A DNA stretch of 61,479 nucleotides from a virus (taxonomy: Duplodnaviria; Caudoviricetes): IMG/VR virus record IMGVR_UViG_3300020175_000007, positions 1 through 61,479 of that record; one strand, given 5' to 3'. Shown piece after piece: positions 1 to 46,001 of the stretch (positions are counted from its first letter, which is position 1; each line of letters opens with the position of its first letter). The position numbers and the translations under genes are program-made. Below the pieces are notes generated by a model. That model was given only the letters and a program-made list of their open reading frames with translations. It did no database searches and had not been told where the DNA came from.

Positions 1-160
1 GTTCATTACCATCATTCCATTCATCAAAATCAAAAAAATTATCTTCATTAGTTCCATCTTCATCTTTCCATCGTTCATAATAAGTTTCAAAATCACCCTC
101 TATGTTTTCTTTTAATAGCCTACCTTCAGCTAAATATTTTCTTAAATCAAAGTTATCCAT
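1..160 (-). CDS. Hypothetical acidic protein with MDNFDLRKYLAEGRLLKENI N-terminal signal (runs off the window edge)
   Basis: Not in the ORF track; translated by hand from the ATG at 160: MDNFDLRKYLAEGRLLKENIEGDFETYYERWKDEDG... The first 20 aa are identical to those of 172..693. Confidence 0.85.
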   Translation of the reverse strand, partial: MDNFDLRKYLAEGRLLKENIEGDFETYYERWKDEDGTNEDNFFDFDEWNDGNE

Positions 161-171
161 ATTATTTTTAT

Positions 172-693
172 TTAATCAAATCTTGTTCTTATGTCAGTTG
201 CTTCACCAGCTACTACTTTACCATTTTGTAAAAGAACAACTCCATTAGCTGAATCACCATCAGCTTCTGAATCGTTAATAAGTTTATTTAGTTCTTCATA
301 ATACATATCTAGATTATCTTCTATGTGCTTGTGAAAAACACTTTCCCAATTATCTCCAGCTGCATCTAATTCATCTTTAAGTCCAAATTTTCTTTCAAAG
401 TGTTCGATGTCCCAATAACCGGCAATGGTATCTTTTATATATTCTTCTTTACTATCAAAATTAGTATAATCAGGACCTTCATCATTCCAATATATCATTT
501 GGTACATTCCTGGTTTAAGGTCAATTATATATTCATCACTAAATTGTTCTTCCTCAGGTGAAGCATCATGTTCAGCTCTATTTCCTATATAAAGTTCTTT
601 ATAATCATCACGGCTGAGTATTGTAGCCATATCTATATTTTCTTTTAATAAGCGACCTTCAGCTAAATATTTTCTTAAATCGAAATTATCCAT
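172..693 (-). CDS. Hypothetical acidic protein, putative internal head protein with capsid-targeting-like N-terminus
   Basis: 173-aa ORF, D/E-rich, with N-terminus MDNFDLRKYLAEGRLLKE shared with the neighbouring gene. Confidence 0.75.
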   Translation of the reverse strand: MDNFDLRKYLAEGRLLKENIDMATILSRDDYKELYIGNRAEHDASPEEEQFSDEYIIDLKPGMYQMIYWNDEGPDYTNFDSKEEYIKDTIAGYWDIEHFERKFGLKDELDAAGDNWESVFHKHIEDNLDMYYEELNKLINDSEADGDSANGVVLLQNGKVVAGEATDIRTRFD

Positions 694-694
694 T

Positions 695-2059
695 TTAGTT
701 TATTTTTATCTTTAAATCGGTTATACCTTTATGTATTCTATGAATATCTCCTTCGTTAATAAATATACGATCTCCTTTTGATAGTAACAAAGGAAGTTTA
801 TTATCTAATTGTAATTTCCAACCTTCTCCTTCTAATACTTCTATTAAACGATCTTCTTTATCTGAATGCCATACTAAACTAGTAGGATCTACATCTTTTG
901 AAAATATTCTTATATTACCTTTATTTTCATATGGGTGGGTTGATTCATTTAATTCATCATCTGCCATTACTAAATCTTGACCATAAGTATACCATCCTCT
1001 ACCATCTTCATCAGCAATAAAATATCTATTACCTGATATTTGTGTTATTGTAAATACCTCACCTGGTGTTTCTTCGTAATCAGGTGTAAGCTTTACTCTA
1101 TCACCCATTTCAAAATTTTCATTTAATTGGCTTCTTAAAAGTGGTTTCCAATTATTCATTATTTGAGCTACTCCTTTTATAAATTCAGGATTTCTTAAAT
1201 CACCTTTAAATTTACCAAATAATGCTCTTAACTCTTCTTTAAATTGAGCTACTGATCCTGTTGGTTCAAATTTTTCGGAATCTGGATCCTCTGGGTTTCT
1301 ATTAAAACCACTATAACGGGTAACTTCATTTAATTTGAATCCTCTAATTTCATCATCTGTAAGTTCTCTACCTAAAGCTTTTTCAAATGCTTTAATCATT
1401 CCTACTTCAGTACTAGCTCCTCTTTTAAGTTGTTTAATAACTCTAATTAGTTCTTTTTTTGAAAAATCATAATTAACCATAGCTTCGTCTATAGACATAT
1501 TATCAATTTCATCACGAACCCATTCTTTTTCGTTTGAACCTAATTGATCATAATCCATTCCAAATTCCATATTTGCAACATCATCATATATGTCCATTTG
1601 TTCATTTACTGAAACAAACTGTTTACCTTTTTTACTACCTCTTACTTTTTTAGCTACAGTAGCTTTACGCTCTGCTTTAGTCATTGATTGAGCTTTTTTC
1701 TTAGGTAAACATCTTGTAGTAGCTTTATCTTTTTTCATTGTACCACAATCACCAGATATATTACCTGATGTATTAATTCTTACCCAATTTTCTTTTTTAA
1801 ACCAATCGCGTAAAGATTCAGCCATCTTGTCTACATTTAATTCTTTATATCCTGAACCATATGGAGCTGATTTTCCATCATGATTAGGGGCTGTATTTTC
1901 ATTTGCTTTTTTCTTACCACTCATTTGACCTTTACATACTTTTACAGCACGACCAGATAAATAAGCAGATGATTTTTCACCAGCAGCCATTCTACGTTTA
2001 CGGTAAGCTTCACCTTTTTTACAAAGTTTTTCTTTAACTAATTTTTTAATTTTATCCAT
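695..2059 (-). CDS. Mosaic multi-module protein: basic Cys-containing modules (DUF5872-like), short acidic modules, SH3-like module, C-terminal cupin-like domain
   Basis: Likely start is the ATG at 2059, overlapping the upstream stop (TAATG). Contains LRDWFKKENWVRI..CG..RCLPKKKA and a C-terminal LVWHSDKEDR..EGEGW..IHRIHKG cupin-like pattern. Modules end in ANE/VNE/IDE/LNE. Confidence 0.7.
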   Translation of the reverse strand: MDKIKKLVKEKLCKKGEAYRKRRMAAGEKSSAYLSGRAVKVCKGQMSGKKKANENTAPNHDGKSAPYGSGYKELNVDKMAESLRDWFKKENWVRINTSGNISGDCGTMKKDKATTRCLPKKKAQSMTKAERKATVAKKVRGSKKGKQFVSVNEQMDIYDDVANMEFGMDYDQLGSNEKEWVRDEIDNMSIDEAMVNYDFSKKELIRVIKQLKRGASTEVGMIKAFEKALGRELTDDEIRGFKLNEVTRYSGFNRNPEDPDSEKFEPTGSVAQFKEELRALFGKFKGDLRNPEFIKGVAQIMNNWKPLLRSQLNENFEMGDRVKLTPDYEETPGEVFTITQISGNRYFIADEDGRGWYTYGQDLVMADDELNESTHPYENKGNIRIFSKDVDPTSLVWHSDKEDRLIEVLEGEGWKLQLDNKLPLLLSKGDRIFINEGDIHRIHKGITDLKIKIN

Positions 2060-3828
2060 TACCAAAATGTATTCATGTTAGCACCTAAACCTAATTGCGA
2101 AGCGTATCTAGGCAAATTACAAGACCAATATCCTGCGGTTGTTCTATCTTTTTTATTTTTACAATTATGTCTTTTGGCAAATGCATTACGGGCTTGTTTA
2201 TTTTTAATTTTAGCTCTTAAACCACCTGATCCGAATGATACTTTTTTAATTTTTTTAGTTTTAGGATCTCTTACATAAACATAATATGCTTTAGATCCTC
2301 CTCTTTTAGGTTTACCTAATGGTGGATCTTTCTTTTTATTTTTATTTTCGTATAATTGTTTTACTATTGTACCTGCTCCTTTTATTTTTTTAGGTACTAA
2401 TTTATACCCAAATTCAGATACATAAGCACTATTTTTAACTCCATCTTTACTTGCTTTAGGTCCTGGTCCTAATGTAGCGCCAGGTCCTTCTTGTATTGGT
2501 GTTAATATATAATCACCATCTTTATGTTTTTTTACTTTAACTACTTTTTTAAGTAATTGAACTAATTCTTTTTTATTATATCCAAACTTTTTAACAGCTT
2601 TAATTAAAGGTTTTAAACCTGCTGCCCCACCTTCATCTTTTAAAGTTTGTCTAATTGCATTTTCAGCTTCTTTTCTTTTAGTTATATCTTCTTTTAATTC
2701 AGGAGAAGCAAATCTATCTAATTGTGTTTGATCTATGTCAATATCAAAAGGTGTTTTTTTAGATAAAATAGATGATAAGTAATCTATACTTACATCTAAA
2801 TCTTCTATATCACTTTCTCTATCTTCACCATCTCCTTCTATACTAATAAGTGTATCTAATATTTTTTGTAATATTCTATTTGATTCTTCATCTTCTTTTA
2901 ATATAGCTAAATCTTCTCTAATAGCTGATTCATTCATATCATACTGGTTAATTTGTTTTTTAACTCTGTATAATTTGTCTTCTAATTTATTTAGCATACT
3001 ACCATATCTATCAGCTATTTCTCCTCCTTCTGGCTCAGCTTCTTGCTCCATGTCTCTATATAGTTGAGCAATTCTATCTTCTAAATCTTTTTGTTCATCT
3101 CTTAAATACATAACATCTTCAAAATCCAATCCACCTCTAGATGGTTCTGGTTGTTTATCTCTTGCTGCTCTAGCTTTCATTACAACAGGATCATTCATGT
3201 TAATTTCATTAATTCCTGCATCTACAAAATCATCTGATACTGCGAATAATTGAATTTTACCATTTTCCATGTCTGTGATTTCAATGTCTTCTATATCATA
3301 TCTTGATTTTAAATTATCAGCTATTTTATTCATTTTCTGCATTGCAGCTGCAGCACCTAATCTTCTAATTTGACCTGACATTGTTTCTTTACCTAATGCT
3401 ATTACTGCTCCTTCTGGTGTAGGATAATCAATAAATACTTTTAAAAAGTTAGGATTATTTTTATCTTTAATATATCTAGGTTCGGATATTTTATCTTCTA
3501 TATCTATTTGTTCTGATAACATAGGTAAATCTAATGGTACTGATTCGCCTTCATATATTCCAAATTCACCTAAATGTGTTTTAACTAATGCTTTATCTTC
3601 TTCACATAAGTTAATTACATTACGTGAATATAATTTTCTTGCTTCTTTAATTAAGGATAAATGAGCATCTGAGCCAATACGATAAACTGATTCAAATAAA
3701 GGAATTTCTTTATCTATATGATATTGTAAACCTTCAGATAATGAAGATTTTATTTTAGTTTTGCTTTCAGTTAAAAGTGGTCCTTTTATTTCTGTTTCGC
3801 AAGTATTACATCCACATTTTTGACACAT
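2059..3828 (-). CDS. Mosaic multi-module protein with N-terminal Cys cluster and basic C-terminal domain (YYVYV..VSFG..RHNC..YWSC)
   Basis: 589-aa ORF. The C-terminal K/R-rich domain resembles small basic proteins of T4-like and other large phages (recalled family resemblance). Internal LTE/LSE/INE/LKE/IQE/LYE boundaries. Confidence 0.7.
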
Positions 3829-3850
3829 AGTATTCTATTTATTATACATA

Positions 3851-5341
3851 TTAATTTCCTATTTTAATATACGCTGAGCTCCATTCGTTTGAACTATAAG
3901 CATATCTTAATATATCTTGAACTAATTTATCTTTATCTTCTATATCATTAAATATATCAACTATTTGTAAACCAAAATTTCTTGAAATTAACCAATCTTT
4001 AGCTCCTATTGGACCTTTAGGTTTACCTTTCATTGCACCTGATTTTACTGTTTCTTTTGATTTATCATCTAACATTTGGTCTAACTCTCCAACCCCATTT
4101 ATTTTTTCTTTAGCATATTTGTTATATAACTCAATAAAATCTTCTTTATTAACATTTGCAGGATCTATAGGGTCTATATTATTTCCTTTTAAAATTGTAT
4201 TAATTGGACCTAAACCAGCTTTTCCTCCTCCTGCTTTAGTACCTTGTATTTCAGCTGCAAATCCTGGGGATCCAAATGTTCTAAGTTCAATTTTTGGTCC
4301 TGTGGTAAAGATATAAGTTGATTTTGTTGAAAGAGTAGCATCAGAATGACCTTCATAAGTATCTAAAGCAGCTTCCTTTCCTATTTGGTATTCTTTAGTT
4401 GGTGGATTTAAATCAGTTTTCTTTAATGATACTCCTATTAAAATTTTATCTACATATAATTGAAGTATTAAAGCATTTAAATCATATAATGATTTAGTTT
4501 GTGTTAAAATATCAACACTAGCTAAAGATGTCATCCAAATATCAGATGGGTTCCATTTATCCATACCAACTTTAGTTCCGGGAGATAATATATCTTTTTT
4601 TAACATTTCAGCTGCATGTTTATATAATTCTTTAACAAAACTAGATTGACGATGTTGAGTATAGCCTTTGTTTGAAAATTTACTTACTAAAGTATTAGCA
4701 GTACCCACAAAACTTTCTTTCCAAGATGGTTGATTTGCAATAAAATCTAACATTTTATCATCACTAACATCTACATCAATTTCATTAATAACTGATTTTA
4801 AATTTTCTTCTGTTAGATCTTCAACTGTTAATTTGCCTTTTTTATAAGCTAAAGCATTTACTAAAGATTGTGCAGATTCTTGAATTGCTGTATTTACTGC
4901 TCCTCCTCTAATTCCTCCACCTCCACCAAATTCTTTTGTTTTTGCTATAGAAGCAAAACTTAATCCATTAATATTACCACCATATAGTTTAGCTATCCCT
5001 TCAGCATCAAGTATGGCATTTTCTATATCTTTTGGATTATCTTTTGGTGTAAACTCTTTTCCTTTTATTACAATCTTATCTAAAACTACATCTTCTTCTG
5101 TTTTAGCATTTGTAAATGAATCTTTTGTAGTAAATTTTTTAGCAAATAATTCTACCCTATAAGGATATTTCATCATGGCATTTTTACCTAATGCACCTAC
5201 TTCTTTTAATTTAAATTTTTTTCCTAATACATCACTAATTAATGACTCTAGTAATAATGTATCTTTAGGATCATTTAAATCAGGGTATCCTTTTGGAAAT
5301 TTATATGAATATTTTTTAAAAAATTTATCGAATCCATCCAT
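3851..5341 (-). CDS. Putative PD-(D/E)xK restriction-endonuclease-fold protein
   Basis: Motifs TAIQE, DKWNPSDIW and IGVSLKK fit a divergent E..D..(S)xK nuclease active site. An N-terminal leader ends in FKLKE. Confidence 0.5.
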   Translation of the reverse strand: MDGFDKFFKKYSYKFPKGYPDLNDPKDTLLLESLISDVLGKKFKLKEVGALGKNAMMKYPYRVELFAKKFTTKDSFTNAKTEEDVVLDKIVIKGKEFTPKDNPKDIENAILDAEGIAKLYGGNINGLSFASIAKTKEFGGGGGIRGGAVNTAIQESAQSLVNALAYKKGKLTVEDLTEENLKSVINEIDVDVSDDKMLDFIANQPSWKESFVGTANTLVSKFSNKGYTQHRQSSFVKELYKHAAEMLKKDILSPGTKVGMDKWNPSDIWMTSLASVDILTQTKSLYDLNALILQLYVDKILIGVSLKKTDLNPPTKEYQIGKEAALDTYEGHSDATLSTKSTYIFTTGPKIELRTFGSPGFAAEIQGTKAGGGKAGLGPINTILKGNNIDPIDPANVNKEDFIELYNKYAKEKINGVGELDQMLDDKSKETVKSGAMKGKPKGPIGAKDWLISRNFGLQIVDIFNDIEDKDKLVQDILRYAYSSNEWSSAYIKIGN

Positions 5342-5796
5342 TATGCTTCTACGTCTACATCAACATCTACTTCGTCTTCGACTTCAGGTGTTGATTCGTT
5401 TTCACTTTCTTCTCCCTTAACATCTGCTCCACTATTTGTTCCATATTGAAGAATACGACCTATTGCTAATGCACAATTTTCTTCTTCATCTAAATTTAAT
5501 AGATAATATTTTTTACCTTCTACAGTAGCAATCCAACTTTTTTCAGTATACATTAAAAGGAAAGATTCCCCATTAAGTAATAAAATTCTAAATACTGTTG
5601 GTCTTGGAGAAACCCACTCTATATCTTCTAAAAAAGAATCAAATTCATGAGTTAATAAATCTACTATAACATCTTTAAGTAATGGAAACTTTGTTAACTC
5701 ATCATAAGCTACAGCAGCATCATTAGATACTGATTTTTCACTATATACTTTTTTTACAAGTACCTTTATTTTATCTCTTAGTTCTGTTGATGTCAT
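5341..5796 (-). CDS. Hypothetical phage protein with acidic tail
   Basis: 151-aa ORF, translationally coupled (TAATG) at both ends. Confidence 0.75.
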   Translation of the reverse strand: MTSTELRDKIKVLVKKVYSEKSVSNDAAVAYDELTKFPLLKDVIVDLLTHEFDSFLEDIEWVSPRPTVFRILLLNGESFLLMYTEKSWIATVEGKKYYLLNLDEEENCALAIGRILQYGTNSGADVKGEESENESTPEVEDEVDVDVDVEA

Positions 5797-6986: not shown

Positions 6987-6989
6987 GTA

Positions 6990-7748
6990 CTAATCTGTTC
7001 TATTGCCAACTACATATTCTCTAGTGAAAAATGTAATTGTATTTCCTATCTGATCTGCTAATTTGTCATTACCTAATTGACTTGCAGCATCCATAGCAGC
7101 TTTTAAAGAATCTTGTACTACTTCTTCTTCTGGTGATAAACCAACATCTATTGTTGCTTTAACTCCTGGTCTTTTAATTTCGATGTCATCAGCTTCAGCA
7201 TCTACTTCTACTTTATCTTCAACATCAATATCAACATCAACATCTTCTTCAGCTTCTGATAGTGTAGAAAGGATATTTTCTCTAATTTTAGCTTTAAGTT
7301 CAGATACTTTCATTTTTTTAAGTGCATTTTCAACGTCATCTTTAGCGTCATCAAATCCATCTTTATATCCTTCTTGTTCAGCATCAGTACGAGCATCTTC
7401 TGACATAGATTTTACGTCATCTTCTTCATATTTTTTACCATACATTTCATCAACAGTATCTTCTTCCATGTTTAAATCAACATTTTCTTTATTGATTTTA
7501 TTTTTACCAGGTCCTTTTGCTTTACCTTTTGCTTCAGCATCACGCTTACCAAATTTTCCATAAGAATCCTCTCTACGATCTTTCATAGATTGTTTTTTGT
7601 CTTTTTCAGCACCTTTACGCATGCCTAAAGATTCGTCTTCTCTATCGTCGTATCCTTGTTTTTTAGCTTCAGATATGATGTTAACCTTTTCAGCTTCATC
7701 ATTAATTCTGTTACTTTTTAAGTATTTTTTGTAATCAAAGTTGTCCAT
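6990..7748 (-). CDS. Highly charged protein, putative scaffold/internal head protein
   Basis: MDNFDYKKYL N-terminus, a variant of the 172..693 signal. K-rich then D/E-rich. Preceded by the late motif. Confidence 0.7.
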   Translation of the reverse strand: MDNFDYKKYLKSNRINDEAEKVNIISEAKKQGYDDREDESLGMRKGAEKDKKQSMKDRREDSYGKFGKRDAEAKGKAKGPGKNKINKENVDLNMEEDTVDEMYGKKYEEDDVKSMSEDARTDAEQEGYKDGFDDAKDDVENALKKMKVSELKAKIRENILSTLSEAEEDVDVDIDVEDKVEVDAEADDIEIKRPGVKATIDVGLSPEEEVVQDSLKAAMDAASQLGNDKLADQIGNTITFFTREYVVGNRTD

Positions 7749-7772
7749 TATGTATATTTTTATTTATAAATA

Positions 7773-8460: not shown

Positions 8461-8469
8461 CTTGTTTTT

Positions 8470-8997: not shown

Positions 8998-9025
8998 TTT
9001 TAAGTTTATTTATTGATTAATTTAT

Positions 9026-9412
9026 TTATTGATCTATATCCATTGAATCATTATGATTTAATTCAATTCCTATATTATCAAATACAGGTACTAAATCTGC
9101 ATAGTAGGAAGAATCATAACCTTTTCCCCCAAAAGTAGAATCTACTTGAATTCCCAATTTATTAGCTACATAACGGATATCGTCATCATCAAATCTTCTT
9201 TCTCCCCTATAATCTTTTTCATCTTTAATAGTTAATTCATCACCACTTTCATCATATACTTGAATTTTATATAATCTACCAAAATCAGTATAAGTAAAAT
9301 CTATTTTAGAGATTAAAGGAATAATACCATCTATTTGAGATTGTATTTCATCACGAACCTCTTCCATCAGTTGGTTATATTTCCAAGAGTGTAAATTAAA
9401 ATTGTCTTTCAT
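9026..9412 (-). CDS. Hypothetical acidic protein with MKDNFNL N-terminal signal
   Basis: 128-aa ORF. The N-terminus resembles the MDNFDL family. Late motif 12 nt upstream. Confidence 0.7.
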   Translation of the reverse strand: MKDNFNLHSWKYNQLMEEVRDEIQSQIDGIIPLISKIDFTYTDFGRLYKIQVYDESGDELTIKDEKDYRGERRFDDDDIRYVANKLGIQVDSTFGGKGYDSSYYADLVPVFDNIGIELNHNDSMDIDQ

Positions 9413-9443
9413 TGTCTTACTTTATTATAAATATATGATTTTC

Positions 9444-12894: not shown

Positions 12895-12926
12895 ATTATA
12901 ATATTATATGTTATAAATATGAATGT

Positions 12927-13052
12927 TTATATCATATTCATATACTGTAAAAATTCCAACTCTTCTTTAGTTACAGTCATAACATCTTTTTGCATAATTT
13001 CTTGTGCACGGTTATATTCTTGTTCTGCTGCATATAGTTCTTCTGAGTTCAT
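12927..13052 (-). CDS. Small hypothetical protein (41 aa)
   Basis: Hand-translated MNSEELYAAEQEYNRAQEIMQKDVMTVTKEELEFLQYMNMI; TAATG-coupled to the upstream ORF. Confidence 0.6.
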   Translation of the reverse strand: MNSEELYAAEQEYNRAQEIMQKDVMTVTKEELEFLQYMNMI

Positions 13053-13210: not shown

Positions 13211-13211
13211 A

Positions 13212-13490: not shown

Positions 13491-13536
13491 ATAACCTTTA
13501 TTTTTTGTTTTCCGGCGTTTTGCCTTATTTACATGG

Positions 13537-13568: not shown

Positions 13569-13583
13569 TTTTTACGCGGAGAT

Positions 13584-15648: not shown

Positions 15649-15655
15649 TATAATC

Positions 15656-37487: not shown

Positions 37488-40400
37488 TTAAGTTAAAATT
37501 TTCTTTTCTAGTAAATCATCAAATATCTTATCTGGACTTCCATTTAATTCTGGTATTAAAAACTCAGGTCTTAAAATTCCAGGAGCTGATGATTTTTCTA
37601 CTTCTAATACAGATCCTGTTCTTATTACACCATAAGGTTTTTGTTGATCCAATATAACAAGATTTCTTGAATTCTCAAACCTTCTTATTAAGAAAAAGTC
37701 TACATTTGTAGAAGGTGGTACAATACCATCTAACTCTAATCTTAACATTGCTTTTTTCGAACCATTACCTTGGGTTCCTACCATATCAAATGTTTCAACA
37801 ATACTTTTTGGTTGTGGTGTTGGTCCTACAATTCTATATGATAATGATTCATCATTTTCAAATCTAATTTCATCTCCTATTCTAATATCAAAATCTACAG
37901 GAATTGGAGGGAATGTAATAAAATCTGGTTCTTGGTTAAATGGAAAATTAGCATTAGGTCCTTGTTCATAATCTAAATCTCCAGCTGCAAAATTATTATT
38001 GTAAGCATCATTTAATATTGATGATGACATTAACAATACACTACCACTACCAAATGGTTCTGCTGTTGGTGGAATATAAGGTACTCCATTTTGTTGTGTT
38101 CTACCTGATCCTGATAAGAAGAAATAAGTTGAAGGTGCTCTATTAAATCCTTGGGCTGCTGCTGTTTTTAAACCTCTTACTTCTAATCTTTGTTGTACTA
38201 AATCTGAAGTTATTCCTTGGCCTGGGATATTAGGCATAAATCCTCTTTGCCATCTACCATTACTTGTCCAATAATCTTGACTTGTTTGATTAAAATTATT
38301 AATATACCCACCCATTTGCCATCTATAAAAGTAACCTGATTCTAATGTTTCATTACTTCTTACACTTATTGTCCATTGGTATCTTCTATCACCACCAACT
38401 CCATCATTACCACCACCCGTTGTACTATCTGGATCTCCTACCCAATCATCCTCATCACCACCAGCATTTAAAATAGAATCTCTTAAATAATCTCCTATAA
38501 ATTCTAGATTAAATATATTTGCTCTTACTCCATTAGGAGATGGTTGTGACCATGATTTAGCATTAGGAGTGTTGAGGGCACTAACATTTAAATATTGAGC
38601 GTTATCTAAACTTGCAGCTATATTTTTCTGTATTTTTAGTTCTACATTTTCAATTATTATTTTTAACCTTGTTGCAAATGAATTAACTCCAAAATCTTCA
38701 GCATTATCTCCTCTCATTAAACACATTTGAAAATGTCCTAATGTATTTCCATTTCCAATACGACTACCAAAACTTGCTCCAGATGATCTAAAAGGTAATC
38801 CTGTTGTGTAAAATGTAAAAGTTGTATAAATAGTGTATTCATCACTTAAGGCTTGTCCTTGAGCTAAAGTTGATGGGTTATTTGGGTAACCTGGTGTATT
38901 TGCATCAAATAAACTTTGACCCCCTAATGCTGGGTTTTTACCTAAGAAAAACATCGATCCTGTAACTGATGTTGGACTATAACTAGATGTTGCTATTTGT
39001 CCTATACTAGTTATATTTGTTGGGGATATAAATACTGGAACTCCTCCAGTTGAATAATCTCCACCTTCACTAATAGGAACACCACCATATGATTGGTTTG
39101 ATGTTTTAGCAGGTAAATAAGCAGAACTTGATAAAAATCTAGTTCCTGCAGCTCCTACACCTGAAGCATTACCAATTGGAAATGATACTTCAGAAGATGC
39201 TATAAAGGCATAATCTGAATAATTAGATAAATCACCTGAAGTTAATATTCCTGATCCTGTAAATGGAATTTCATTAACATAACCATTACTACTTGTTTGG
39301 CTATAAATAACTGGTATTGGATTTACACCTGATCTATATACACCCGCATATGATTCTAATCTTGCTAATTCTGGTGCTAATTCTCCCGTTCTATTTTGTG
39401 GTTTTCTTACAGCAGCTGAAACATTAGTTGCTACTGTTTGGATAGTTTCTGTTTCTGAAGGAAGGAATCCATCTCTATCTTTAAAAGTACCAATTAAATT
39501 ATAATAACTTGCTGCTGATAAACCTGGATCAAACAATTGTCCTTCACTATCAATTAAATATTTTATATAATAACTAGTTTTGTTATTTACTACTGGATAT
39601 GGATCTAGAATATCTGTAAAGAATCCTATATAAGCATTTGTATGGTTAATTGTTGGTACTTGACCCAAACCATCATTTGCAATTGTATCACTTGGAGTAT
39701 AATAATTTATTCTTGCTGAATCTAATCTACTTCCTAAATATCTAGGTATTGTATTAGCTTTAGATGAATAAAATGAATCTGGAATGGCTGCTCTAGAAGC
39801 TGAGAATACTACTAATTCATTGAAATTAACAGGTGTCATTATATTTGTTGAATAATCAACAGCCATTACTACTGAATTTAATCTATCATTTTGATAATTA
39901 TTTAATAAAGGTTGACAATCAAATGCTCTAGAAAAATCTGTTAAATCTGAAAATATTGTTGGAACAGGTCCTGGGTCATCTAATGTTGAGCTTGTAATAC
40001 TCATACTATATTCAGTAACTATTAAACTACTTGATATATTATATCCTGTATGGTCTCCATTATCAACTGCTAAAGATAATGATAATCTATCATTAACATC
40101 AATAGCTACTCCTGTACCTGTAGGGTCAGTATAATTTATAGATTTTGATAAGAAAATTTCTGCTCCGGTTGTTCCAAAAGTATCAGAATACCATTCATTA
40201 GTATGAATTAATGAACCTGGTGTTGCTTGTGAAGAACTTTTAAAATATAGTTTTAATGAAGCTGTTGTCCATGTTGGGCCTCCTCCTGTACCTGCTCCTG
40301 CACCATATGTACTTGTACCATATATTCCTGATCCATACACAGTTGCGTCAAATGCTGATCCTGAAAATGAACTTAAAGTTGCTGATGCTGTTAATGAAAG

Positions 40401-43400
40401 ATTATTTGATGGAACTGATTCAAAAGTATATGTACCCGCTTCACTTGCAGATAATGATGATGAATATTGAATATAAATATCTTTTATTTTAGTAGTAAAA
40501 TCAGCAAAAGGCGTAACTCCTGAAACAAATTTTTGTGTTATTGTTGGGGTTATTGAAAAAGTATTTCCTGTAAATATTAAACCAAATTCTATTGCTGCTT
40601 GAACTGAAAAACATCTACCACGTACTGTTGGGTCAGTATCAGCAGGTATTTGTATTGAAACTTGATCTTGATTTGTATTAACATAAGTTAAAGTAATTAA
40701 ACTTGTTTCATTTGCATGGATACAATAATTATAAGATACATAATCTCCATATTCAGTTTTTAAACCAAATGCTGAGTATCCTACTGCTAAACCTGAAGGG
40801 TTAGTTGTTGTGTCAAAAGTACTAGAAGTATATTGATAACTTCCAGGTGAAAGTTGAACTTGAACACATCCAGGATTTACTAATGTACCACGTGGTTGAT
40901 TTAATGACGCAACAGGAGTACCATCAGATTGGGATATTGAAAATGTAGCTCCATCTGCTGGTGGAAAAGTTAATTTATTATATTGTGTAAGCAGCCAAGC
41001 TTGTACTTCTCTTACACTACTATATACTTCAAATGTTCCTGATACAGGTGTTGTAGGATCTAATAAAACTGCAGGACTTCCTGAATAAGCATTTCCAATT
41101 ATATTTAATTGTGAACCATCTGTAGATGAAGGATTTCCTAATCCTGTCCAACCTACCTCTTGTCTATCTGTTGGAAGATATTCTGCATAAGGTATAGAAG
41201 GTGTTCCAGATCCTGTTTCTGTTAAAATATACATTTTAAATGGTCTATGCATATATCTATTATACCTAAATAAATTACTTGGGTTTAATGGTGTACCATC
41301 ACCTGTTCCTACTGGAGCATCTCCTCTATAAACATATAAAGCATTATCATTAGCAACTGGTATATTTAAACCTAAAGTAACAAATGGAAATTGAGCAGAA
41401 TACCCTGGGTTATTTACATTATAAATTCCATAACCCCCATTACCTTCTTCTACTAATTCAGCTACTCGAAAATCGTTTGCTACAGGAGAAATTGCTGCAT
41501 TTTTAACAGAATCTAATTTATCTGAACCTGATACATAAATAGCATTTTCAGAATTTACATAATAATATCTAACCATTGATTCAGAAGTTGGTGCATTTGC
41601 ACCTGAAACGAATGACATTATTAATTCTACATTTCCTGGTAAGGATCCTGTGTCAGCATTTAATGTAGATAATTCTCTAAATGCTGATGCTGATATTGTT
41701 TGATATGATGCAGATGAATTCATAAACCATGGTACTACAGATTGAGTATATGGTATAAATTGTCCTCGACTAGATCTGATAACTTGATCGTCATAATCTT
41801 GTTCACGAGCACCAGTGTTAAATTGTTGTAGATTATCACTTAGTAAACCATTACCATTATTAAATACTCCTGTTTGTTCAAAATATCCAGCGTCATACCA
41901 TCCTCTAAAAAATTGTTCTGTTGGGAAATTGGAAGCAGTACCTGGAAAGAATCCTTGAGGTACTGATGCTGTTTCATTATTTGCTAATAATATATCACCT
42001 GATACTAATCCTGGTTCATTTTCTGTTCCTTGTGCTGCTTCCCAAACATAATCAGCACTTGCTGAGAATTGTGGGTTTGCAAATAATGAATCATAAGAAG
42101 TAACTGCTGTAGAAGATGGTAATTGGAATATATCCATTAATGCAAAACCTAATAAATTATTTATTGATGCATCTTCTATGTAAAAAGTTTGAGGACCATT
42201 TGGTAATAAATTTCCTGCTGCATCACTAGCTCCACTTAATACAAAAGTTACAAATTCACATTGTGATAAGAATTCATTTAAAGTATTTCCATTAGCGGAT
42301 GTTAAATTAATCTTAATATATTTAACTTTATTTCCATCATTCCATAACCATGCTCTACCTAATCCAGGAACGGTATTATTACTTAAAAATGTACCTTCAT
42401 CCATTTGATTACCTATTAATCCTGTTGAATCAAAATATTGAACAAAATATAAGAAATCTTCTGGCATTTCAATACCAAAATAAGCACTACAAATTTCATT
42501 TAATTCTACTGGTATACTAGATCCACTAAATTCACCATTATAAAATTCACGTTGATCATCTCTTGGATAATTAATAGATCCAGTTTTTGTTGGGTATGTA
42601 TCGAACCAACTTTGTGTCATACCAAACTCATTATTTGGTCCTAGGCCTTGTGAACCTGATAGGTAAAGTGTATCACTATTAAATATTTCAAATGAACCAC
42701 CTGTTCCTCCTTTATAAGTATAAATTGCTGAGCCACTCGGAGTACTATATTGAGGATAACCTAAAGAACCTGTACTATAATTTCTTGCTTGTGGTTTTAT
42801 AGAACCTGAATGGTCTTCAAATGAAGATGACATTTGAGGTTGTCTATATTTATTTCTTTCTAAGATATGTTGTTTTATTACTACTCCTGATGTTAAAGTA
42901 GTATGAGCAGGAACAATATCTTTAATCATTTTAAATAATGAATTATCAAAAAATTTAATTAATCTGATAAAATCATTTACATCATAACTTGTAATATATT
43001 TTTCAAAATAAGCTTCACTTAATGAAACTAAATCTGGGTATTTATTGTTATAAAGTGATTGTGATATTTGTCTTGGATCTCCTATATAATTTCCAATATT
43101 AAAATTACCTAATTGTCCTGTTATATCATCATCAATTTGGTTTTGTGGTGAAAATGCTACTTCTAAATAATCTGGGTTAGCTGTATAACTTTGAGTTGCA
43201 AATGAAGATTGAGCAATTGATTCTGCTGCGGATAATACATTACCTTCTGGTATTATATCAGTACTTAATCTTATTTTTTCAGTACTTCTACTTCTTATAC
43301 CTGAAGCTATTTGGTCAAAATATATTTCTTCTTTATTAACAACCCATTCTGGTAGGTTAGTTCCAAATGATCCTGTACTACCAAGATTAGAAAAACTTGA

Positions 43401-46001
43401 CGTTATAGACCATGAACCTGATACTTTAGGGTGAACAGATGCTACATTTTCTACAGATGCTGTTTGTAATAAAGTACCAAAACCTACTCTAAAGGCTAAG
43501 TGGTCAGGTGTAGTATCAAATTGATTACCTAAATATGAATATGGGTTAAGTGTAAAATCTCTAAAAGCACTTTGACTTAAATTTGTATTGTAATATCTTA
43601 ATTCTTGAAGTGCTCCTGAAAAAGGAGTTATTGTTTTATTTGCTAAATTAACATTATTAGTTGGTAAAAAGTAAATATTATTACTAGCATACCAATTAGC
43701 AGTATCGCCACTTATTGATACTGATCCTGAAAATCCAACATCATCAAGTAAAGAATTAGCTGCTGATAATTCATATACACCCCCTGAGTCTATTTGGTTT
43801 AATTGAACTGACCACCAACCCCCATCAAAGAAGGGCATTGTAATTGTTGCTTTATTAGAGGCGTTAACTATGCCATTAGGGAAAAAACTTAATTCTCCAT
43901 AACTTTGTGATACACTAGCTACAGCACCTGAATATGATCCACTATTAACTAAAGTTTGGTCATATTCTAAAATCATACCTAAGGTATAATCAGGGGCAGC
44001 ATAATTACCATCTGCTACAAATAATGATTGTGTATAAGCTCCAGATCCTGTTGGTATACCATCTGTTTTAAATCTAAATTGTATTGAATTAGGCTTATCT
44101 TGATTAGAATTCCAATTAGTATTAAGATCAAATGATGATGAAAAAGTTGCTGTGTTTCCTTTTAAAGCATAATTAAATTGGTTTTGAGAATAATCCCAAT
44201 CTTCTTCATTTATTCTATCTTGACCACCAAATTCAGTTACTCTTAAAATAGTATCTGGGATACCATATGATGTTATTAAAGCTTTTATACCAGCTACTGT
44301 ACCTTTAGTTTTTAATATATAAGGTATATTATGGTAAATACGTTTATATACCCCCTTGTTTACATTGTCTAAGGGTACTATGTCATTCGATGCTGATATG
44401 CGTGTATCCACGTATTCAGACCCAGTAGGTACGCCTAAAACACTATCAATTGACCCCGTAATATTAGCAATTGGAAAATTACTACCTGATGGTGTTAATC
44501 CTAAAAAGGCTAAGTATAAATCATCAGTATTAAAGTTATTTGCATATAATTTTAAACCAAAATCTCTAACAGCATCAGCTACCATATCTTTAGATATACC
44601 ATAATCTAATCTGTTATCACCATCAAATCTAGTAGTTATATTTTTTGTATATTCCCAAACATTATCATAATGTTGACCAACCATGTCTATGAATAGTTCA
44701 TATCCTTCATTTAAAGCATCTTCTTTTAAATAATCAGGAATAGTATTATATAAATAATCTTGATTATTTTGATCAAATTTCCATGCTGTAAGTGATTGAC
44801 CACCATAATATGATGAAGTGTCATTTGAACTTCCTAACCAATTTAAAACTTCAGTACTTCCAGTTCCAAATAAAGTATATGGTGGTGCGGTATTGTTTTT
44901 AGGGTATGAGTAAGTAGAACCACTATTAAAATATAAAAATGATTCATACCCATCAAAATTTTGTATAATATCATCTATAGTATTATTTAAAGCAGCATTA
45001 CTACCACTGTAAAAAGGACTATTTAAAGTATCTCCTGTTACACCATCATTTATTTGGTTTGAAGCAGATTGAATTAATCCTACTTTATAATAAAAATTGT
45101 TTAATCTTGTTTCTGCTGATGAAAAATGTACAAAATTATTATAATCTTCAAAATCAATACTTATATTAATTTCTTTTTTCTTTAGTAAATTTTGAACTTG
45201 GTTAAATGAACTAGTTAAATTACTACTTATTAAATTTGAATATGAAAAATTTTGTGTATTACCTCCTGTTTCACCTTTTACTTGTAAACTATAATTTGGA
45301 CCTGATATATATTCAAAATCATCAGGGGTAAATTCTTGTACGGGGAATATGACTTCATATGCTTGTGGTGCTGAAAGTGATTCTACTATCCAACATTGTG
45401 ATTTTGTATCTAAAACAGCAGGTAAAGCTTCATATAATTTAACTAATACAGTAGGTTCTGTTGGGTCCCCATTGTCTACTTTAATATTATTAGCTATAAC
45501 AATATCTTCACCACCAAAATTTAAGTAAAAATCAACAAAGTAAGTTGAAGCATTTCTATATTGTTCAAATTCATTTACTGAACTTACTAAAGGAGAAGAT
45601 AATATATCATTACTTGCTAATCTTATTTCAGTTCTATCTGAATTTATTTCTTTTATATAATATCTATTATTTTGGTTTGATCTACATCTATTTCTATAAA
45701 ATTCATAATTTACATAATAAGTACCTTCAAAAAATCCTAAATTATTTAATTCCTTTTCAGGCATTAAATTAACATTTCCTTCAGTAACGGAATATGTGGT
45801 TGATATGGCAGATGTTGATGTATCAGCAGGGAATATCATTACTTGGTTAGCATCATATACACTGTATTCAATATAATCTGTTGATGATGAGAAGTTTGTA
45901 TCTAATTCAAATGATGCTATTAAAGAACTATCATTTGTACTATACTCCTGCATTTGAAATGTGCCTGGATTTACCTGTCTTATTTTAGTTTCTTCTGCCA
46001 T
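37488..46001 (-). CDS. Very large baseplate wedge/tail protein
   Basis: 2837 aa. YKRIYHNIPYILKTKGTVAGIKALITSYG is a P2 gpI/T4 gp7-like wedge motif; LamG-like region near aa 640-810. Confidence 0.7.
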   Translation of the reverse strand: MAEETKIRQVNPGTFQMQEYSTNDSSLIASFELDTNFSSSTDYIEYSVYDANQVMIFPADTSTSAISTTYSVTEGNVNLMPEKELNNLGFFEGTYYVNYEFYRNRCRSNQNNRYYIKEINSDRTEIRLASNDILSSPLVSSVNEFEQYRNASTYFVDFYLNFGGEDIVIANNIKVDNGDPTEPTVLVKLYEALPAVLDTKSQCWIVESLSAPQAYEVIFPVQEFTPDDFEYISGPNYSLQVKGETGGNTQNFSYSNLISSNLTSSFNQVQNLLKKKEINISIDFEDYNNFVHFSSAETRLNNFYYKVGLIQSASNQINDGVTGDTLNSPFYSGSNAALNNTIDDIIQNFDGYESFLYFNSGSTYSYPKNNTAPPYTLFGTGSTEVLNWLGSSNDTSSYYGGQSLTAWKFDQNNQDYLYNTIPDYLKEDALNEGYELFIDMVGQHYDNVWEYTKNITTRFDGDNRLDYGISKDMVADAVRDFGLKLYANNFNTDDLYLAFLGLTPSGSNFPIANITGSIDSVLGVPTGSEYVDTRISASNDIVPLDNVNKGVYKRIYHNIPYILKTKGTVAGIKALITSYGIPDTILRVTEFGGQDRINEEDWDYSQNQFNYALKGNTATFSSSFDLNTNWNSNQDKPNSIQFRFKTDGIPTGSGAYTQSLFVADGNYAAPDYTLGMILEYDQTLVNSGSYSGAVASVSQSYGELSFFPNGIVNASNKATITMPFFDGGWWSVQLNQIDSGGVYELSAANSLLDDVGFSGSVSISGDTANWYASNNIYFLPTNNVNLANKTITPFSGALQELRYYNTNLSQSAFRDFTLNPYSYLGNQFDTTPDHLAFRVGFGTLLQTASVENVASVHPKVSGSWSITSSFSNLGSTGSFGTNLPEWVVNKEEIYFDQIASGIRSRSTEKIRLSTDIIPEGNVLSAAESIAQSSFATQSYTANPDYLEVAFSPQNQIDDDITGQLGNFNIGNYIGDPRQISQSLYNNKYPDLVSLSEAYFEKYITSYDVNDFIRLIKFFDNSLFKMIKDIVPAHTTLTSGVVIKQHILERNKYRQPQMSSSFEDHSGSIKPQARNYSTGSLGYPQYSTPSGSAIYTYKGGTGGSFEIFNSDTLYLSGSQGLGPNNEFGMTQSWFDTYPTKTGSINYPRDDQREFYNGEFSGSSIPVELNEICSAYFGIEMPEDFLYFVQYFDSTGLIGNQMDEGTFLSNNTVPGLGRAWLWNDGNKVKYIKINLTSANGNTLNEFLSQCEFVTFVLSGASDAAGNLLPNGPQTFYIEDASINNLLGFALMDIFQLPSSTAVTSYDSLFANPQFSASADYVWEAAQGTENEPGLVSGDILLANNETASVPQGFFPGTASNFPTEQFFRGWYDAGYFEQTGVFNNGNGLLSDNLQQFNTGAREQDYDDQVIRSSRGQFIPYTQSVVPWFMNSSASYQTISASAFRELSTLNADTGSLPGNVELIMSFVSGANAPTSESMVRYYYVNSENAIYVSGSDKLDSVKNAAISPVANDFRVAELVEEGNGGYGIYNVNNPGYSAQFPFVTLGLNIPVANDNALYVYRGDAPVGTGDGTPLNPSNLFRYNRYMHRPFKMYILTETGSGTPSIPYAEYLPTDRQEVGWTGLGNPSSTDGSQLNIIGNAYSGSPAVLLDPTTPVSGTFEVYSSVREVQAWLLTQYNKLTFPPADGATFSISQSDGTPVASLNQPRGTLVNPGCVQVQLSPGSYQYTSSTFDTTTNPSGLAVGYSAFGLKTEYGDYVSYNYCIHANETSLITLTYVNTNQDQVSIQIPADTDPTVRGRCFSVQAAIEFGLIFTGNTFSITPTITQKFVSGVTPFADFTTKIKDIYIQYSSSLSASEAGTYTFESVPSNNLSLTASATLSSFSGSAFDATVYGSGIYGTSTYGAGAGTGGGPTWTTASLKLYFKSSSQATPGSLIHTNEWYSDTFGTTGAEIFLSKSINYTDPTGTGVAIDVNDRLSLSLAVDNGDHTGYNISSSLIVTEYSMSITSSTLDDPGPVPTIFSDLTDFSRAFDCQPLLNNYQNDRLNSVVMAVDYSTNIMTPVNFNELVVFSASRAAIPDSFYSSKANTIPRYLGSRLDSARINYYTPSDTIANDGLGQVPTINHTNAYIGFFTDILDPYPVVNNKTSYYIKYLIDSEGQLFDPGLSAASYYNLIGTFKDRDGFLPSETETIQTVATNVSAAVRKPQNRTGELAPELARLESYAGVYRSGVNPIPVIYSQTSSNGYVNEIPFTGSGILTSGDLSNYSDYAFIASSEVSFPIGNASGVGAAGTRFLSSSAYLPAKTSNQSYGGVPISEGGDYSTGGVPVFISPTNITSIGQIATSSYSPTSVTGSMFFLGKNPALGGQSLFDANTPGYPNNPSTLAQGQALSDEYTIYTTFTFYTTGLPFRSSGASFGSRIGNGNTLGHFQMCLMRGDNAEDFGVNSFATRLKIIIENVELKIQKNIAASLDNAQYLNVSALNTPNAKSWSQPSPNGVRANIFNLEFIGDYLRDSILNAGGDEDDWVGDPDSTTGGGNDGVGGDRRYQWTISVRSNETLESGYFYRWQMGGYINNFNQTSQDYWTSNGRWQRGFMPNIPGQGITSDLVQQRLEVRGLKTAAAQGFNRAPSTYFFLSGSGRTQQNGVPYIPPTAEPFGSGSVLLMSSSILNDAYNNNFAAGDLDYEQGPNANFPFNQEPDFITFPPIPVDFDIRIGDEIRFENDESLSYRIVGPTPQPKSIVETFDMVGTQGNGSKKAMLRLELDGIVPPSTNVDFFLIRRFENSRNLVILDQQKPYGVIRTGSVLEVEKSSAPGILRPEFLIPELNGSPDKIFDDLLEKKILT

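What the first reader, a model, noticed from the sequence alone, without database searches (positions are those of the whole stretch)
101..693. Shared N-terminal signal MDNFDLRKYLAEGRLLKENI on unrelated proteins, conserved at the protein level
Seen: the first 20 codons at 101-160 and 634-693 encode identical peptides with five synonymous codon differences (AAC/AAT, TTT/TTC, AGG/CGC, CTA/TTA, AAC/AAT) and no replacements; the proteins diverge after that. Variants start 6990..7748 (MDNFDYKKYL), 9026..9412 (MKDNFNLHSW..LMEE) and, more weakly, 3851..5341 (MDGFDKFF). Known: T4 internal proteins use a ~10-aa capsid-targeting sequence ending in IAE that gp21 removes. Inference: this is a portable capsid-targeting tag ending at LAE/LKE cleavage sites.
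Basis: partly seen in the sequence, partly recalled or inferred. Interest (0 to 1): 0.85.

Follow-up and report, generated by a model that had tools for sequence, protein, structure and literature searches.

The report
Shared leader peptide on phage proteins
An 18-residue leader shared by many unrelated small proteins of uncultured marine T4-like phages probably directs them into the phage head, much like the known targeting tag of phage T4, but this is not yet shown by experiment.

Summary
On the minus strand, ORFs 2..160 and 172..693 both begin MDNFDLRKYLAEGRLLKENI. They differ at 6 bases in 5 codons, all synonymous, and are unrelated afterwards.

It is far more than chance. The same start occurs in at least 119 viral contigs on 48 unrelated cargo families. 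A profile finds 1484 protein clusters.

The window is a fragment of a T4-related myovirus. It is syntenic with a 120-kb contig that has a T4-type head module with an S77 (gp21-type) protease. The nearest isolate is Flavobacterium phage immuto.

Tagged genes sit upstream of terL or between the protease and scaffold genes. The tag has two parts:
- MDNFDL[KR]KY, almost always N-terminal.
- LAEG[KR]L[LFY][KE]E, which also recurs between modules of fused proteins.

L10-x-E12 followed by G matches gp21 sites.

Best reading (about 0.55): a T4-like capsid-targeting and processing leader, a new variant of a known kind. There is no virion or cleavage data. The cargo is acidic, unlike the basic T4 internal proteins. 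The MDGFDKFF "variant" is not a tag.

The parts
101..160 (-). Tag copy 1: the first 20 codons (MDNFDLRKYLAEGRLLKENI) of an ORF that runs off the contig end. The predicted L-A-E site is at 125-133.
   Evidence: profile score 52.9 bits
2..100 (-). Start of the cargo of the truncated tagged ORF (EGDFETYYERWKDEDG...). It is unrelated to the cargo of the next gene.
640..693 (-). Tag copy 2: the 18 conserved codons MDNFDLRKYLAEGRLLKE of the 173-aa protein. The proposed targeting half is at 667-693. The processing half is at 640-666, with L-A-E at 658-666.
172..639 (-). Cargo of the 173-aa protein (acidic, whole-protein pI 4.28) plus its stop codon. The family has 112 homologous proteins at E<=0.001 in metagenomes, all unnamed. 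It occurs with the tag, with variant tags, without a tag (152 aa), or as a second module.
   Evidence: no Pfam, PHROG, PDB or Atlas match
6990..7748 (-). 252-aa protein with a variant tag (MDNFDYKKYL) that lacks the L-A-E-G half. Residues 120-152 are 82% identical to a repeat in the head scaffold protein of the syntenic contig G001.
9026..9412 (-). 128-aa protein with a diverged tag (MKDNFNLHSWKYNQLMEE), which still holds an L-x-E.
695..3828 (-). Two conserved neighbour genes, W456 (695..2065) and W589 (2059..3828), that precede the tag cluster. Homologues lie within 57 and 66 of the 119 tag loci. The C-terminal part of W589 is shared with a head-module ORF of G001.
3851..5341 (-). 496-aa protein starting MDGFDKFF. 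It is not a tagged protein.
7764..7772 (-). Promoter-like TATTTATAA, 16 bases upstream of the 7748 start. The same word lies before many structural genes.
9425..9433 (-). Promoter-like TATTTATAA, 13 bases upstream of the 9412 start.

Best explanation
The roughly 18-residue leader MDNFDL[KR]KYLAEG[KR]L[LFY][KE]E is a prohead-targeting and processing signal. It belongs to a lineage of T4-related myoviruses of Bacteroidota and is the functional counterpart of the capsid targeting sequence (CTS) of T4 internal proteins.

Proposed mechanism (inferred):
1. Tagged proteins are made together with the head proteins.
2. The N-terminal half (MDNFDL[KR]KY, with invariant F4 and Y9) docks them to the scaffolding core of the assembling prohead.
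3. The gp21-type S77 protease then cuts at L10-A11-E12|G13, and possibly again at the L-x-E that ends the tag. This frees a small cargo inside the head.
4. In fused multi-module proteins only the processing half (L-A-E-G-[KR]-L-L-K-E) is kept at each junction. The protease would therefore cut them into modules of about 95 residues.
5. The cargo is either ejected into the host with the DNA, as pre-made host-takeover or anti-defence proteins, or serves as expendable core material.

Shown here: the anatomy and distribution of the tag, its portability, and its genomic association with a T4-type head module. Inferred: docking, cleavage, packaging and ejection.
For: 1. Lineage.
- The window has baseplate-wedge PHROG matches.
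- It is syntenic at 66-93% nt identity with the 120-kb contig G001.
- In G001 the tag cluster (62.0-64.5 kb) is followed by terL, portal, four ORFs, an S77 protease (PF03420, E 2.7e-30), an acidic scaffold and a gp23-like capsid protein.
- PF03420 is present in 4 of 5 large tag-bearing contigs.
- The protease aligns with T4 gp21 through the GEL[DN]HP and SSRG motifs.

2. Position of the tagged genes. Gene order was read in 10 loci.
- Tagged genes lie between the protease and scaffold genes in L074 (1 gene), L042 (2), L035 (3) and L066 (2).
- The same slot is filled in immuto (gp069) and in the 99%-complete G006.
- Otherwise they sit in a cluster after W589/W456 homologues, 3-5 kb upstream of terL.
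- TerL lies within 47 of the 119 tag loci and portal within 33.

3. CTS-like anatomy.
- 210 of 225 profile hits are at the ORF start, and conservation ends at residue 18-19.
- In 145 aligned tags, F4 is present in 144, Y9 in 144, L10 in 145, E12 in 145 and G13 in 136. A second [LIV]xE lies within residues 13-20 in 133.
- In non-canonical tags P2 varies (A, S, T, V, I, K) while L and E mostly stay.
- For comparison, T4 ipII and ipIII start MKTYQEFIAE|A, ipI has TITE|A, and gp23 has FLTE|A. The gp23 site aligns with LVVE|E in G001 and IVSE|A in immuto.
- In T4, targeting depends on residues 4 and 7 and processing on residues 8 and 10 (PMC9026906, passages of section 2.6).

4. Portability.
- The 158 tagged ORFs fall into 48 BLAST-unrelated cargo families.
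- The window's own cargo family occurs with the tag, with variant tags, without a tag, and as a second module.
- Untagged homologues of three cargo families lie together in a non-structural region of G006 and G007.

5. Junctions. Of 126 internal junction-like motifs in the top 150 hits, 108 keep only the L-A-E-G-[KR]-L half. P3 is L in 95 and P1' is G in 104. The median size of a module between predicted sites is 95 residues.

6. Links to the head core.
- W252 shares a 33-residue module, 82% identical, with the scaffold protein.
- W589 shares 53 residues, 58% identical, with a head-module ORF.

7. Protein-level constraint.
- Arg14 is encoded by AGA, CGC, AGG, CGT or CGA, and Leu15 by TTA or CTA.
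- Nucleotide identity is 0.81 in the tag, against 0.39 upstream and 0.33 downstream.
- Immuto (capsid protein 55.8% identical) keeps the pattern in MENFDLKKFLVENKL and MADNFNLRSFLTENKL, with E about 1e-5. These rows were not in the model.
Against: - There is no virion proteome, no cleavage data and no structure. Every functional step is inferred.
- The window itself holds no head genes, so the link rests on syntenic relatives.
- The cargo is strongly acidic: median pI 4.24, with 112 of 130 below 5. Mature T4 internal proteins are basic, pI 9.0-9.7. Acidic T4 core proteins such as gp22 and gp67 are degraded and expelled rather than delivered.
- Not all tagged genes are near head genes. 21 of the 119 loci share no tested neighbour, and five such contigs have no terL. 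These five are fragments, 6-38% complete.
- A few tags lack E12 (YLKSG, YLAKN, YLANN).
- P1' of the second L-x-E is mostly E, D or N, not the small residue seen at T4 sites.
- Synonymous codon use in the tag departs from the cargo background at F4, A11, G13, K14 and L15. The copies therefore share DNA-level descent, and a nucleotide-level role is not excluded.
- Only 12 of 136 canonical tagged genes have the promoter-like TATTTAT[AC] in the 60 bases upstream.
- Similarity of the tag to the scaffold N-terminus is not significant (hhalign E 0.11).
Confidence: 0.55

Rival explanations
1. The leader is a docking helix or linker for a shared partner that has nothing to do with the head. The partner could be a host hub protein, a phage chaperone or another assembly. 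Different cargo modules would be brought to the same place, and the internal copies would be repeated docking or linker elements.
For: - The motif recurs inside multi-module proteins, which T4 CTSs are not known to do.
- The cargo is small and acidic, like many early host-takeover proteins.
- Untagged homologues lie among small genes of a non-structural region.
- Some tagged genes are far from head genes.
Against: - It does not explain the invariant L-x-E|G in a lineage with a Glu-specific-type S77 protease.
- It does not explain the repeated placement between the protease and scaffold genes.
- It does not explain the modules shared with scaffold and head-module proteins.
- It does not explain why internal copies keep only the L-A-E-G half.
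Confidence: 0.2
2. The tagged genes are a fast-evolving paralogous family or gene-cassette system. The conserved 5' stretch would be kept mainly as a recombination substrate for cassette shuffling, or for efficient translation start in a host that lacks Shine-Dalgarno sites. It would have no sorting function.
For: - The genes form tandem arrays with 2-4 tags per locus and 1-8 profile matches (E<=0.01) per large genome record.
- The tag is 81% identical at the DNA level between genes with unrelated cargo.
- Synonymous codon choice is non-random.
- The upstream leaders are A-rich and have no Shine-Dalgarno sequence.
- Metatranscriptome contigs break at the tags, as assemblies do at repeats.
- Modules occur in different orders.
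Against: - Amino-acid identity is kept through multi-base codon changes (AGA/CGC Arg, TTA/CTA Leu).
- It is also kept in distant relatives whose DNA has diverged (immuto).
- Internal in-frame copies without a start codon keep the peptide.
- Untagged homologues of the window's own 173-aa cargo family (152-aa forms) exist in metagenomic contigs, so that cargo does not need the tag in its sequence; whether they are expressed was not tested.
- Recombination would be a consequence of a shared tag rather than its reason.
Confidence: 0.12
3. The tag does target the prohead, but the acidic cargo is auxiliary scaffold or core filler. It would be degraded and expelled before DNA packaging and would not be delivered to the host.
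For: - The cargo pI (median 4.24) resembles that of the T4 core proteins gp22 (4.58) and gp67 (4.05) and of the G001 scaffold (4.17).
- W252 carries a scaffold repeat.
Against: - A filler role does not explain 48 or more unrelated, often globular-looking cargo families, nor the 1484 clusters.
- It does not explain conserved cargo families with 112 homologous proteins.
- It does not explain cargo with a membrane segment or an OmpA domain.
Confidence: 0.1

Closest known systems
Capsid targeting sequence (CTS) of T4 internal proteins IPI, IPII and IPIII, removed by the gp21 prohead protease
   Same: - It is a short N-terminal leader, 10-19 residues in T4 and about 12-18 here, on otherwise unrelated small proteins.
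- Both have aromatic residues in the first half. These are Y4 and F7 in T4, needed for targeting (PMC9026906 section 2.6), and F4 and Y9 here.
- Both have an aromatic-[LI]-A-E end followed by a small residue: FIAE|A in T4 and YLAE|G here.
- In both cases the phage has a homologous S77 protease, a scaffold and a gp23-type capsid protein.
   Different: - There is no detectable sequence homology to MKTYQEFIAE.
- Six more conserved residues follow the predicted cut.
- The second half recurs at internal junctions of fused proteins.
- The cargo is acidic, whereas the T4 proteins are basic.
- The repertoire is far larger: 1484 clusters, against three internal proteins in T4.
- The genes sit next to or inside the head module, unlike the T4 ip genes.
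- Packaging and cleavage are untested.
Propeptides of giant-phage head proteins (SPN3US gp53/gp54, phiKZ), cut by S80 proteases at S/A-x-E
   Same: Diverged paralogues keep identical N-terminal residues that contain the protease motif. Propeptides can hold several sites. One ejection protein has a membrane helix (PMC5694885, passages).
   Different: Those propeptides are mostly over 100 residues long. The proteins are paralogues and not unrelated cargo. Their processing was shown by mass spectrometry, and nothing comparable exists here.
Polymorphic cargo systems with a constant targeting part (MuF-domain phage head toxins; encapsulin cargo-loading peptides). Recalled from memory, not checked with any call.
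   Same: The logic is the same: a constant short part directs variable cargo into an HK97-fold shell.
   Different: MuF is a large domain. Encapsulin peptides are C-terminal and bind the shell directly. There is no sequence relation.

Membership tests
T4-type capsid targeting sequence (CTS) | A short propeptide (10-19 residues) at the extreme N-terminus | tested here: met
   210 of 225 profile hits are at the ORF start. Conservation ends at residue 18-19.
T4-type capsid targeting sequence (CTS) | The same leader on proteins whose mature parts are unrelated | tested here: met
   There are 48 BLAST-unrelated cargo families among 158 ORFs. Cargo occurs with and without the tag.
T4-type capsid targeting sequence (CTS) | The leader ends in a gp21 site, [LI]-x-E followed by a small residue | tested here: met
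   This is met at the motif level only. L10 and E12 are present in 145 of 145 tags and G13 in 136 of 145. T4 reference sites were read.
T4-type capsid targeting sequence (CTS) | The phage has a gp21-type (S77) protease and a gp22/gp23-type prohead | tested here: met
   This is met in relatives: PF03420 is present in 4 of 5 large tag-bearing contigs and in G006, and head modules were read. The window fragment itself holds no head genes.
T4-type capsid targeting sequence (CTS) | Sequence similarity to the T4 leader MKT[YF].EF | tested here: inconclusive
   Only a pattern resemblance was seen by eye (aromatic at 4; aromatic-[LI]-A-E). The leader is too short for a statistical test.
T4-type capsid targeting sequence (CTS) | The proteins are packaged in the head and the leader is removed in virions | not testable with these tools
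   This needs virion mass spectrometry or reporter fusions.
T4-type capsid targeting sequence (CTS) | The mature proteins are basic and DNA-associated | tested here: not met
   Median cargo pI is 4.24, against 9.0-9.7 for mature T4 IPI-III.
RiPP / class I lanthipeptide leader peptide (FNLD-type box; the motif is recalled from memory) | A short Cys/Ser/Thr-rich core peptide behind the leader, with modification enzymes nearby | tested here: not met
   The tagged proteins have a median length of 138 aa and are acidic. Ten neighbouring window ORFs have no Pfam family, and 140 tagged proteins gave only one OmpA match and one weak match.
Sec, Tat or lipoprotein signal peptide | A hydrophobic core of about 10 or more residues after a basic N-region | tested here: not met
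   This was read directly from the sequence. The tag alternates charged and hydrophobic residues and has no hydrophobic run.

The most novel reading that the evidence does not exclude
A lineage of abundant marine Bacteroidota T4-like phages may load its heads with a very large, fast-turning-over set of small effector proteins. This set would span more than a thousand cargo clusters. Loading would use a two-part leader in which the first half docks to the prohead core. The second half would be a protease site that is also used between modules, so that fused 'polyproteins' are cut into pieces of about 95 residues, small enough to leave through the tail with the DNA.
Probability: 0.35. Interest if true: 0.85.

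Novelty: new variant of a known kind. Interest (0 to 1): 0.72.

Why it matters
If the leader is a head-targeting signal, it marks more than a thousand families of otherwise unannotatable proteins as candidates for delivery pre-made into the host. In T4, that class includes an anti-restriction protein (PMC3012670, passages).

It would also extend the CTS principle from T-even coliphages to distant T4 relatives of Bacteroidota, which are major algal-bloom degraders.

It offers a testable two-part grammar of targeting half and processing half, with internal processing sites that T4 is not known to have.

Finally, it would give a ready tag for packaging foreign proteins in Flavobacterium phages. 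One cultured relative, immuto, makes the test practical.

Tried and rejected
Searches that found nothing:
- Megablast of window 1-12000 against GenBank phages gave no match.
- tblastn of the 20-aa tag gave no match, and the 173-aa protein gave only chance hits with E>=2. No deposited phage has a near-identical tag.
- Pfam found nothing for 10 window ORFs. It found 1 OmpA match and 1 weak match among 140 tagged proteins, and nothing for 8 head-module tagged proteins, including immuto gp077.
- PHROGs gave only unnamed families.
- The PDB sequence search with the cargo profile gave no hit. The ESM Atlas gave no usable hit.
- No paper holds the four motif strings that I searched. I did not check whether a virion proteome of immuto exists.
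- The earlier-findings tool was not open.

Tests without support or without a result:
- Tag against the scaffold N-terminus by hhalign was not significant (E 0.11).
- The complex prediction (protease alignment A4 with tag alignment A1) never entered the queue, so there is no result.
- Two structure jobs (A5 and A6) had not finished. There is therefore no model and no fold search.
- RNA: contigs of four marine metatranscriptome runs from three studies cover all of window 1-12000. This shows presence in RNA libraries only. It gives no proof or timing of transcription.
- Late-promoter idea: TATTTATAA precedes structural genes and the two variant-tag genes. Only 12 of 136 canonical tagged genes have TATTTAT[AC] within 60 bases upstream, against 1 of 134 in a coding control. 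Most tagged genes sit inside operons.
- Microcystis phage Mel-JY01 (capsid protein 49% identical) has no tag at E<=0.1.
- The two matches in bacterial genome bins are 31% GC contigs with W456/W589 homologues, that is, phage contigs binned by mistake.

Ideas rejected:
- MDGFDKFF as a variant tag.
- A RiPP leader.
- An export signal peptide.
- Full-length paralogy of the two window genes.
Full report
**1. The observation**

All genes at the left end of the window are on the minus strand. ORF 172..693 (173 aa) and ORF 2..160 both begin MDNFDLRKYLAEGRLLKENI. ORF 2..160 runs off the contig end, and the genome record is the window alone, with no terminal repeat.

The two 60-base stretches differ at 6 bases in 5 codons, all synonymous. 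The flanks are unrelated: 16/40 bases identical upstream and 23/60 downstream. The proteins share nothing after residue 20.

**2. Is it more than chance?**

There were often 2-4 copies per contig. All 158 matches open an ORF.

Positions 1-13 are fixed by the pattern. Positions 14-18 are not, and they are still conserved ([KR] L [LFY] [EK] E). Information content falls to background at residue 20.

*The cargo.* The parts after residue 20 fall into 48 BLAST-unrelated families, 25 of them singletons.

*The profile search.* I built a profile from 123 thirty-residue N-termini (A1). Two of its rows were the window's variants. Searched against 1.84 billion cluster representatives, it gave 1484 hits at E<=1e-3 and 69 at E<=1e-10. 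I saw only the best 150.

In those 150, the core motif starts at residue 2 in 142. Among 145 aligned tags the counts are F4 144, Y9 144, L10 145, A11 136, E12 145 and G13 136. In six-frame ORFs of the 119 loci, 210 of 225 profile hits sit at the ORF start.

*Where else it occurs.* Bacterial and archaeal species genomes hold the pattern only twice. Both contigs are 31% GC and carry phage neighbours. No deposited phage has a near-identical tag. No paper in the library holds the motif strings.

**3. Protein level or DNA level?**

Between genes with unrelated cargo, the tag is 81% identical at the DNA level, against 39% upstream and 33% downstream.

Arg14 is written AGA, CGC, AGG, CGT or CGA. Leu15 is TTA or CTA. 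K and R alternate at positions 7 and 14.

Distant relatives keep the peptide pattern with different residues at the P2 position. So there is selection on the peptide.

However, synonymous codon use in the tag departs from the cargo background at F4, A11, G13, K14 and L15. The copies therefore also share DNA-level descent, and a nucleotide-level role such as recombination cannot be excluded.

**4. What phage is this?**

The window has baseplate-wedge PHROG matches at 48-51 kb. It also has three giant ORFs and virion-protein matches. The sequence upstream of the start codons is A-rich, with no Shine-Dalgarno site.

The reverse complement of window 1-20000 is syntenic with positions 43-65 kb of a 120-kb contig, G001, at 66-93% nt identity. 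In G001 six canonical tags lie at 62.0-64.5 kb. They are followed at 68.8-79 kb by terL, portal, four ORFs, an S77 prohead protease (PF03420, E 2.7e-30), an acidic scaffold protein and a gp23-like capsid protein.

PF03420 is present in 4 of 5 large tag-bearing contigs.

The nearest isolate is Flavobacterium phage vB_FspM_immuto (160 kb), whose capsid protein is 55.8% identical. It has the same gene order. Its tag-like starts are:
- gp077, MADNFNLRSFLTENKL..LLKE, just upstream of terL.
- gp076, MENFDLKKFLVENKL..ILKE, also just upstream of terL.
- gp069, MENNFDIHKWQAKFLKES, between the protease and scaffold genes.

The profile scores gp077 and gp076 at E about 1e-5.

So the window is a fragment of a T4-related myovirus, most likely of a Bacteroidota host. 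That host call is an inference from the nearest isolate and the start-site context.

**5. Where the tagged genes sit**

I read the gene order in ten loci that hold both tags and head genes. There are two hot spots.
- Between the protease and scaffold genes: L074 (1 gene), L042 (2), L035 (3) and L066 (2). The same slot is filled in immuto and in the 99%-complete G006.
- In a cluster after homologues of the window's W589 and W456, 3-5 kb upstream of terL. This is the window's own arrangement.

By tblastn, TerL lies within 47 of the 119 tag loci. Portal lies within 33, W589 homologues within 66 and W456 homologues within 57. Genomes hold 1-8 tag hits each.

21 loci share no tested neighbour. Five such contigs lack terL but are only 6-38% complete. 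Some tagged genes therefore lie elsewhere in these roughly 130-165-kb genomes.

**6. Anatomy: two halves**

Many of the best profile hits hold the motif more than once. Among 126 internal junction-like motifs in the top 150 hits, 18 are full copies and 108 keep only L-A-E-G-[KR]-L-[LFY]-[KE]-E. In these junctions P3 is L in 95, P2 is A in 83 and P1' is G in 104.

The top list favours multi-copy proteins. In the unbiased pattern set, 9 of 140 ORFs have such a junction.

The sequence after a junction is the same as the sequence after an N-terminal tag elsewhere. For example, the window's cargo (NIDMATIL...) follows ...DLAEGRLLKE...GLAEGKLLKE...DEGKLLKE or ...LSEGIIKE in fused proteins.

That cargo family has 112 homologous proteins at E<=0.001. 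It occurs in these forms:
- With the canonical tag.
- With variant tags (MENFDLKKYLSENKLLKE, MKNFNLRKFLVENKL...).
- Behind another module that itself starts with the variant leader MKELHRFRQFLTEGVIEDE, joined by the junction ...LSEGIIKE (P0182).
- With no tag at all (152 aa, starting MNKINKATI...).
- As the first or the second module of a fusion.

Untagged homologues of three cargo families lie side by side in a non-structural region of G006 and G007. The tag is therefore portable and is not part of the cargo fold.

**7. Comparison with T4, read from the T4 record**

The T4 sequences read here are:
- ipII and ipIII start MKTYQEFIAE|A.
- ipI has ...TITE|A at residue 19.
- gp23 is cut at FLTE|A. 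This aligns with LVVE|E in G001 and IVSE|A in immuto.
- gp24 starts MAKINELLRE|S.

The cut positions themselves come from the literature and from my own knowledge, not from these calls.

The T4 CTS is 10-19 residues long. Targeting depends mainly on residues 4 and 7 (Y and F), and processing on residues 8 and 10 (PMC9026906, passages of section 2.6).

The internal proteins of T-even phages are described as diverse defence proteins that share only the CTS (PMC3012670, passages). SPN3US gp53 and gp54 keep identical N-terminal residues that contain a protease motif (PMC5694885, passages).

The present tag has the same grammar: M-x-x-aromatic ... aromatic-[LI]-A-E followed by a small residue. In non-canonical tags P2 varies while L and E mostly persist.

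The internal junctions keep exactly the part that, by the T4 analogy, is needed for processing. They drop the part needed for targeting.

**8. Other links to the head core**

W252 (6990..7748, variant tag) shares a 33-residue module with the G001 scaffold at 82% identity (E 1.7e-13). W589 shares 53 residues with a G001 head-module ORF at 58% identity (E 1e-14).

Modules between predicted L-x-E|G sites have a median length of 95 residues, and 94% are 200 residues or shorter. This is similar in size to the T4 internal proteins.

**9. What speaks against this reading**

- No experiment bears on packaging or cleavage.
- The cargo is strongly acidic (median pI 4.24, with 112 of 130 below 5). Mature T4 IPs are basic, and acidic T4 core proteins are degraded.
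- Some tags lack E12.
- The residue after the second L-x-E is usually not small.
- Few tagged genes have their own promoter-like word.
- The resemblance to the scaffold N-terminus is not significant.
- The planned protease-tag complex prediction never ran, and the two structure jobs did not finish.
- Metatranscriptome contigs cover the region, but that does not prove transcription.

**10. Verdict**

The best explanation (about 0.55) is a T4-like prohead-targeting and processing leader.

It differs from the T4 CTS in four ways: its sequence, its use at internal junctions, its acidic cargo and its very large cargo repertoire. I therefore rate it a new variant of a known kind.

The rivals are a capsid-unrelated docking helix or linker (0.2), a cassette or expression element (0.12), and a targeted but expendable core filler (0.1).

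The cultured phage immuto makes the decisive test, virion mass spectrometry for processed gp076, gp077 and gp069, straightforward.

Noticed in passing
window 7764-7772, 9425-9433, 12911-12919, 16394-16402, 28405-28413, 34751-34759, 37452-37460, 51088-51096, 57305-57313, 59292-59300 (all minus strand): The word TATTTATAA lies 13-35 bases upstream of an ORF start in 10 of its 11 minus-strand matches. It also lies before portal and other structural genes in G001, L035 and immuto. It is a likely promoter element for structural (late?) genes of this lineage.
   Followed up: partly
L124 9254, L035 10784, L125 19940 and others; L119 3421; L125 4813: Scaffold proteins of this lineage end in R[MFW][RKQ]KLAG[IL](I)K. 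The same 8-mer ends 17 ORFs. It also stands near the N-terminus of 4 small ORFs, in one case directly after the MDNFDL tag, and inside a fifth ORF (L093). It may be a second head-targeting or capsid-binding peptide.
   Followed up: partly
loci L003-L119, L125, L135; internal copy in window ORF 6990..7748: A second shared N-terminal leader, MKKSELK.[YF]IKE.I...LSE, opens 37 ORFs (32 distinct) of 2603, with different downstream parts. These ORFs often lie a few genes upstream of terL.
   Followed up: partly
L130 6001-6629, L133 5917-6905 (G007, G006): Untagged homologues of three tagged cargo families lie next to each other among small genes, far from the head module.
   Followed up: partly
window 8092-8460 and 8470-8997 (minus strand): Two ORFs start with lipoprotein-like signal peptides (..LLYSCG....FLFIGCGNN..). 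They lie between the variant-tag genes.
   Followed up: no
window 10004-12109 (minus strand): This 701-aa ORF joins three parts: a nucleotidyltransferase-like start, an HExxH motif, and a 5'-3' deoxyribonucleotidase domain (phrog_2643, E 1.7e-21). Immuto encodes the first and last parts as separate genes.
   Followed up: no
window 21648-34317 and 37488-46001 (minus strand): There are three giant ORFs of 2240, 1961 and 2837 aa. The region at 21-33 kb is 38-41% GC, against about 29% elsewhere. The 2837-aa ORF (37488..46001), the only one of the three scanned, has no PHROG match.
   Followed up: no
L125 10736-11737 (immuto gp077): The record names this tagged protein cob(I)alamin adenosyltransferase (PduO). 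Pfam finds no family in it.
   Followed up: partly
window 107-115 and 694-706: Metatranscriptome contigs from several runs end or change partner at the two tags, as assemblies do at repeats. Different sequences therefore adjoin the same tag in the community.
   Followed up: no
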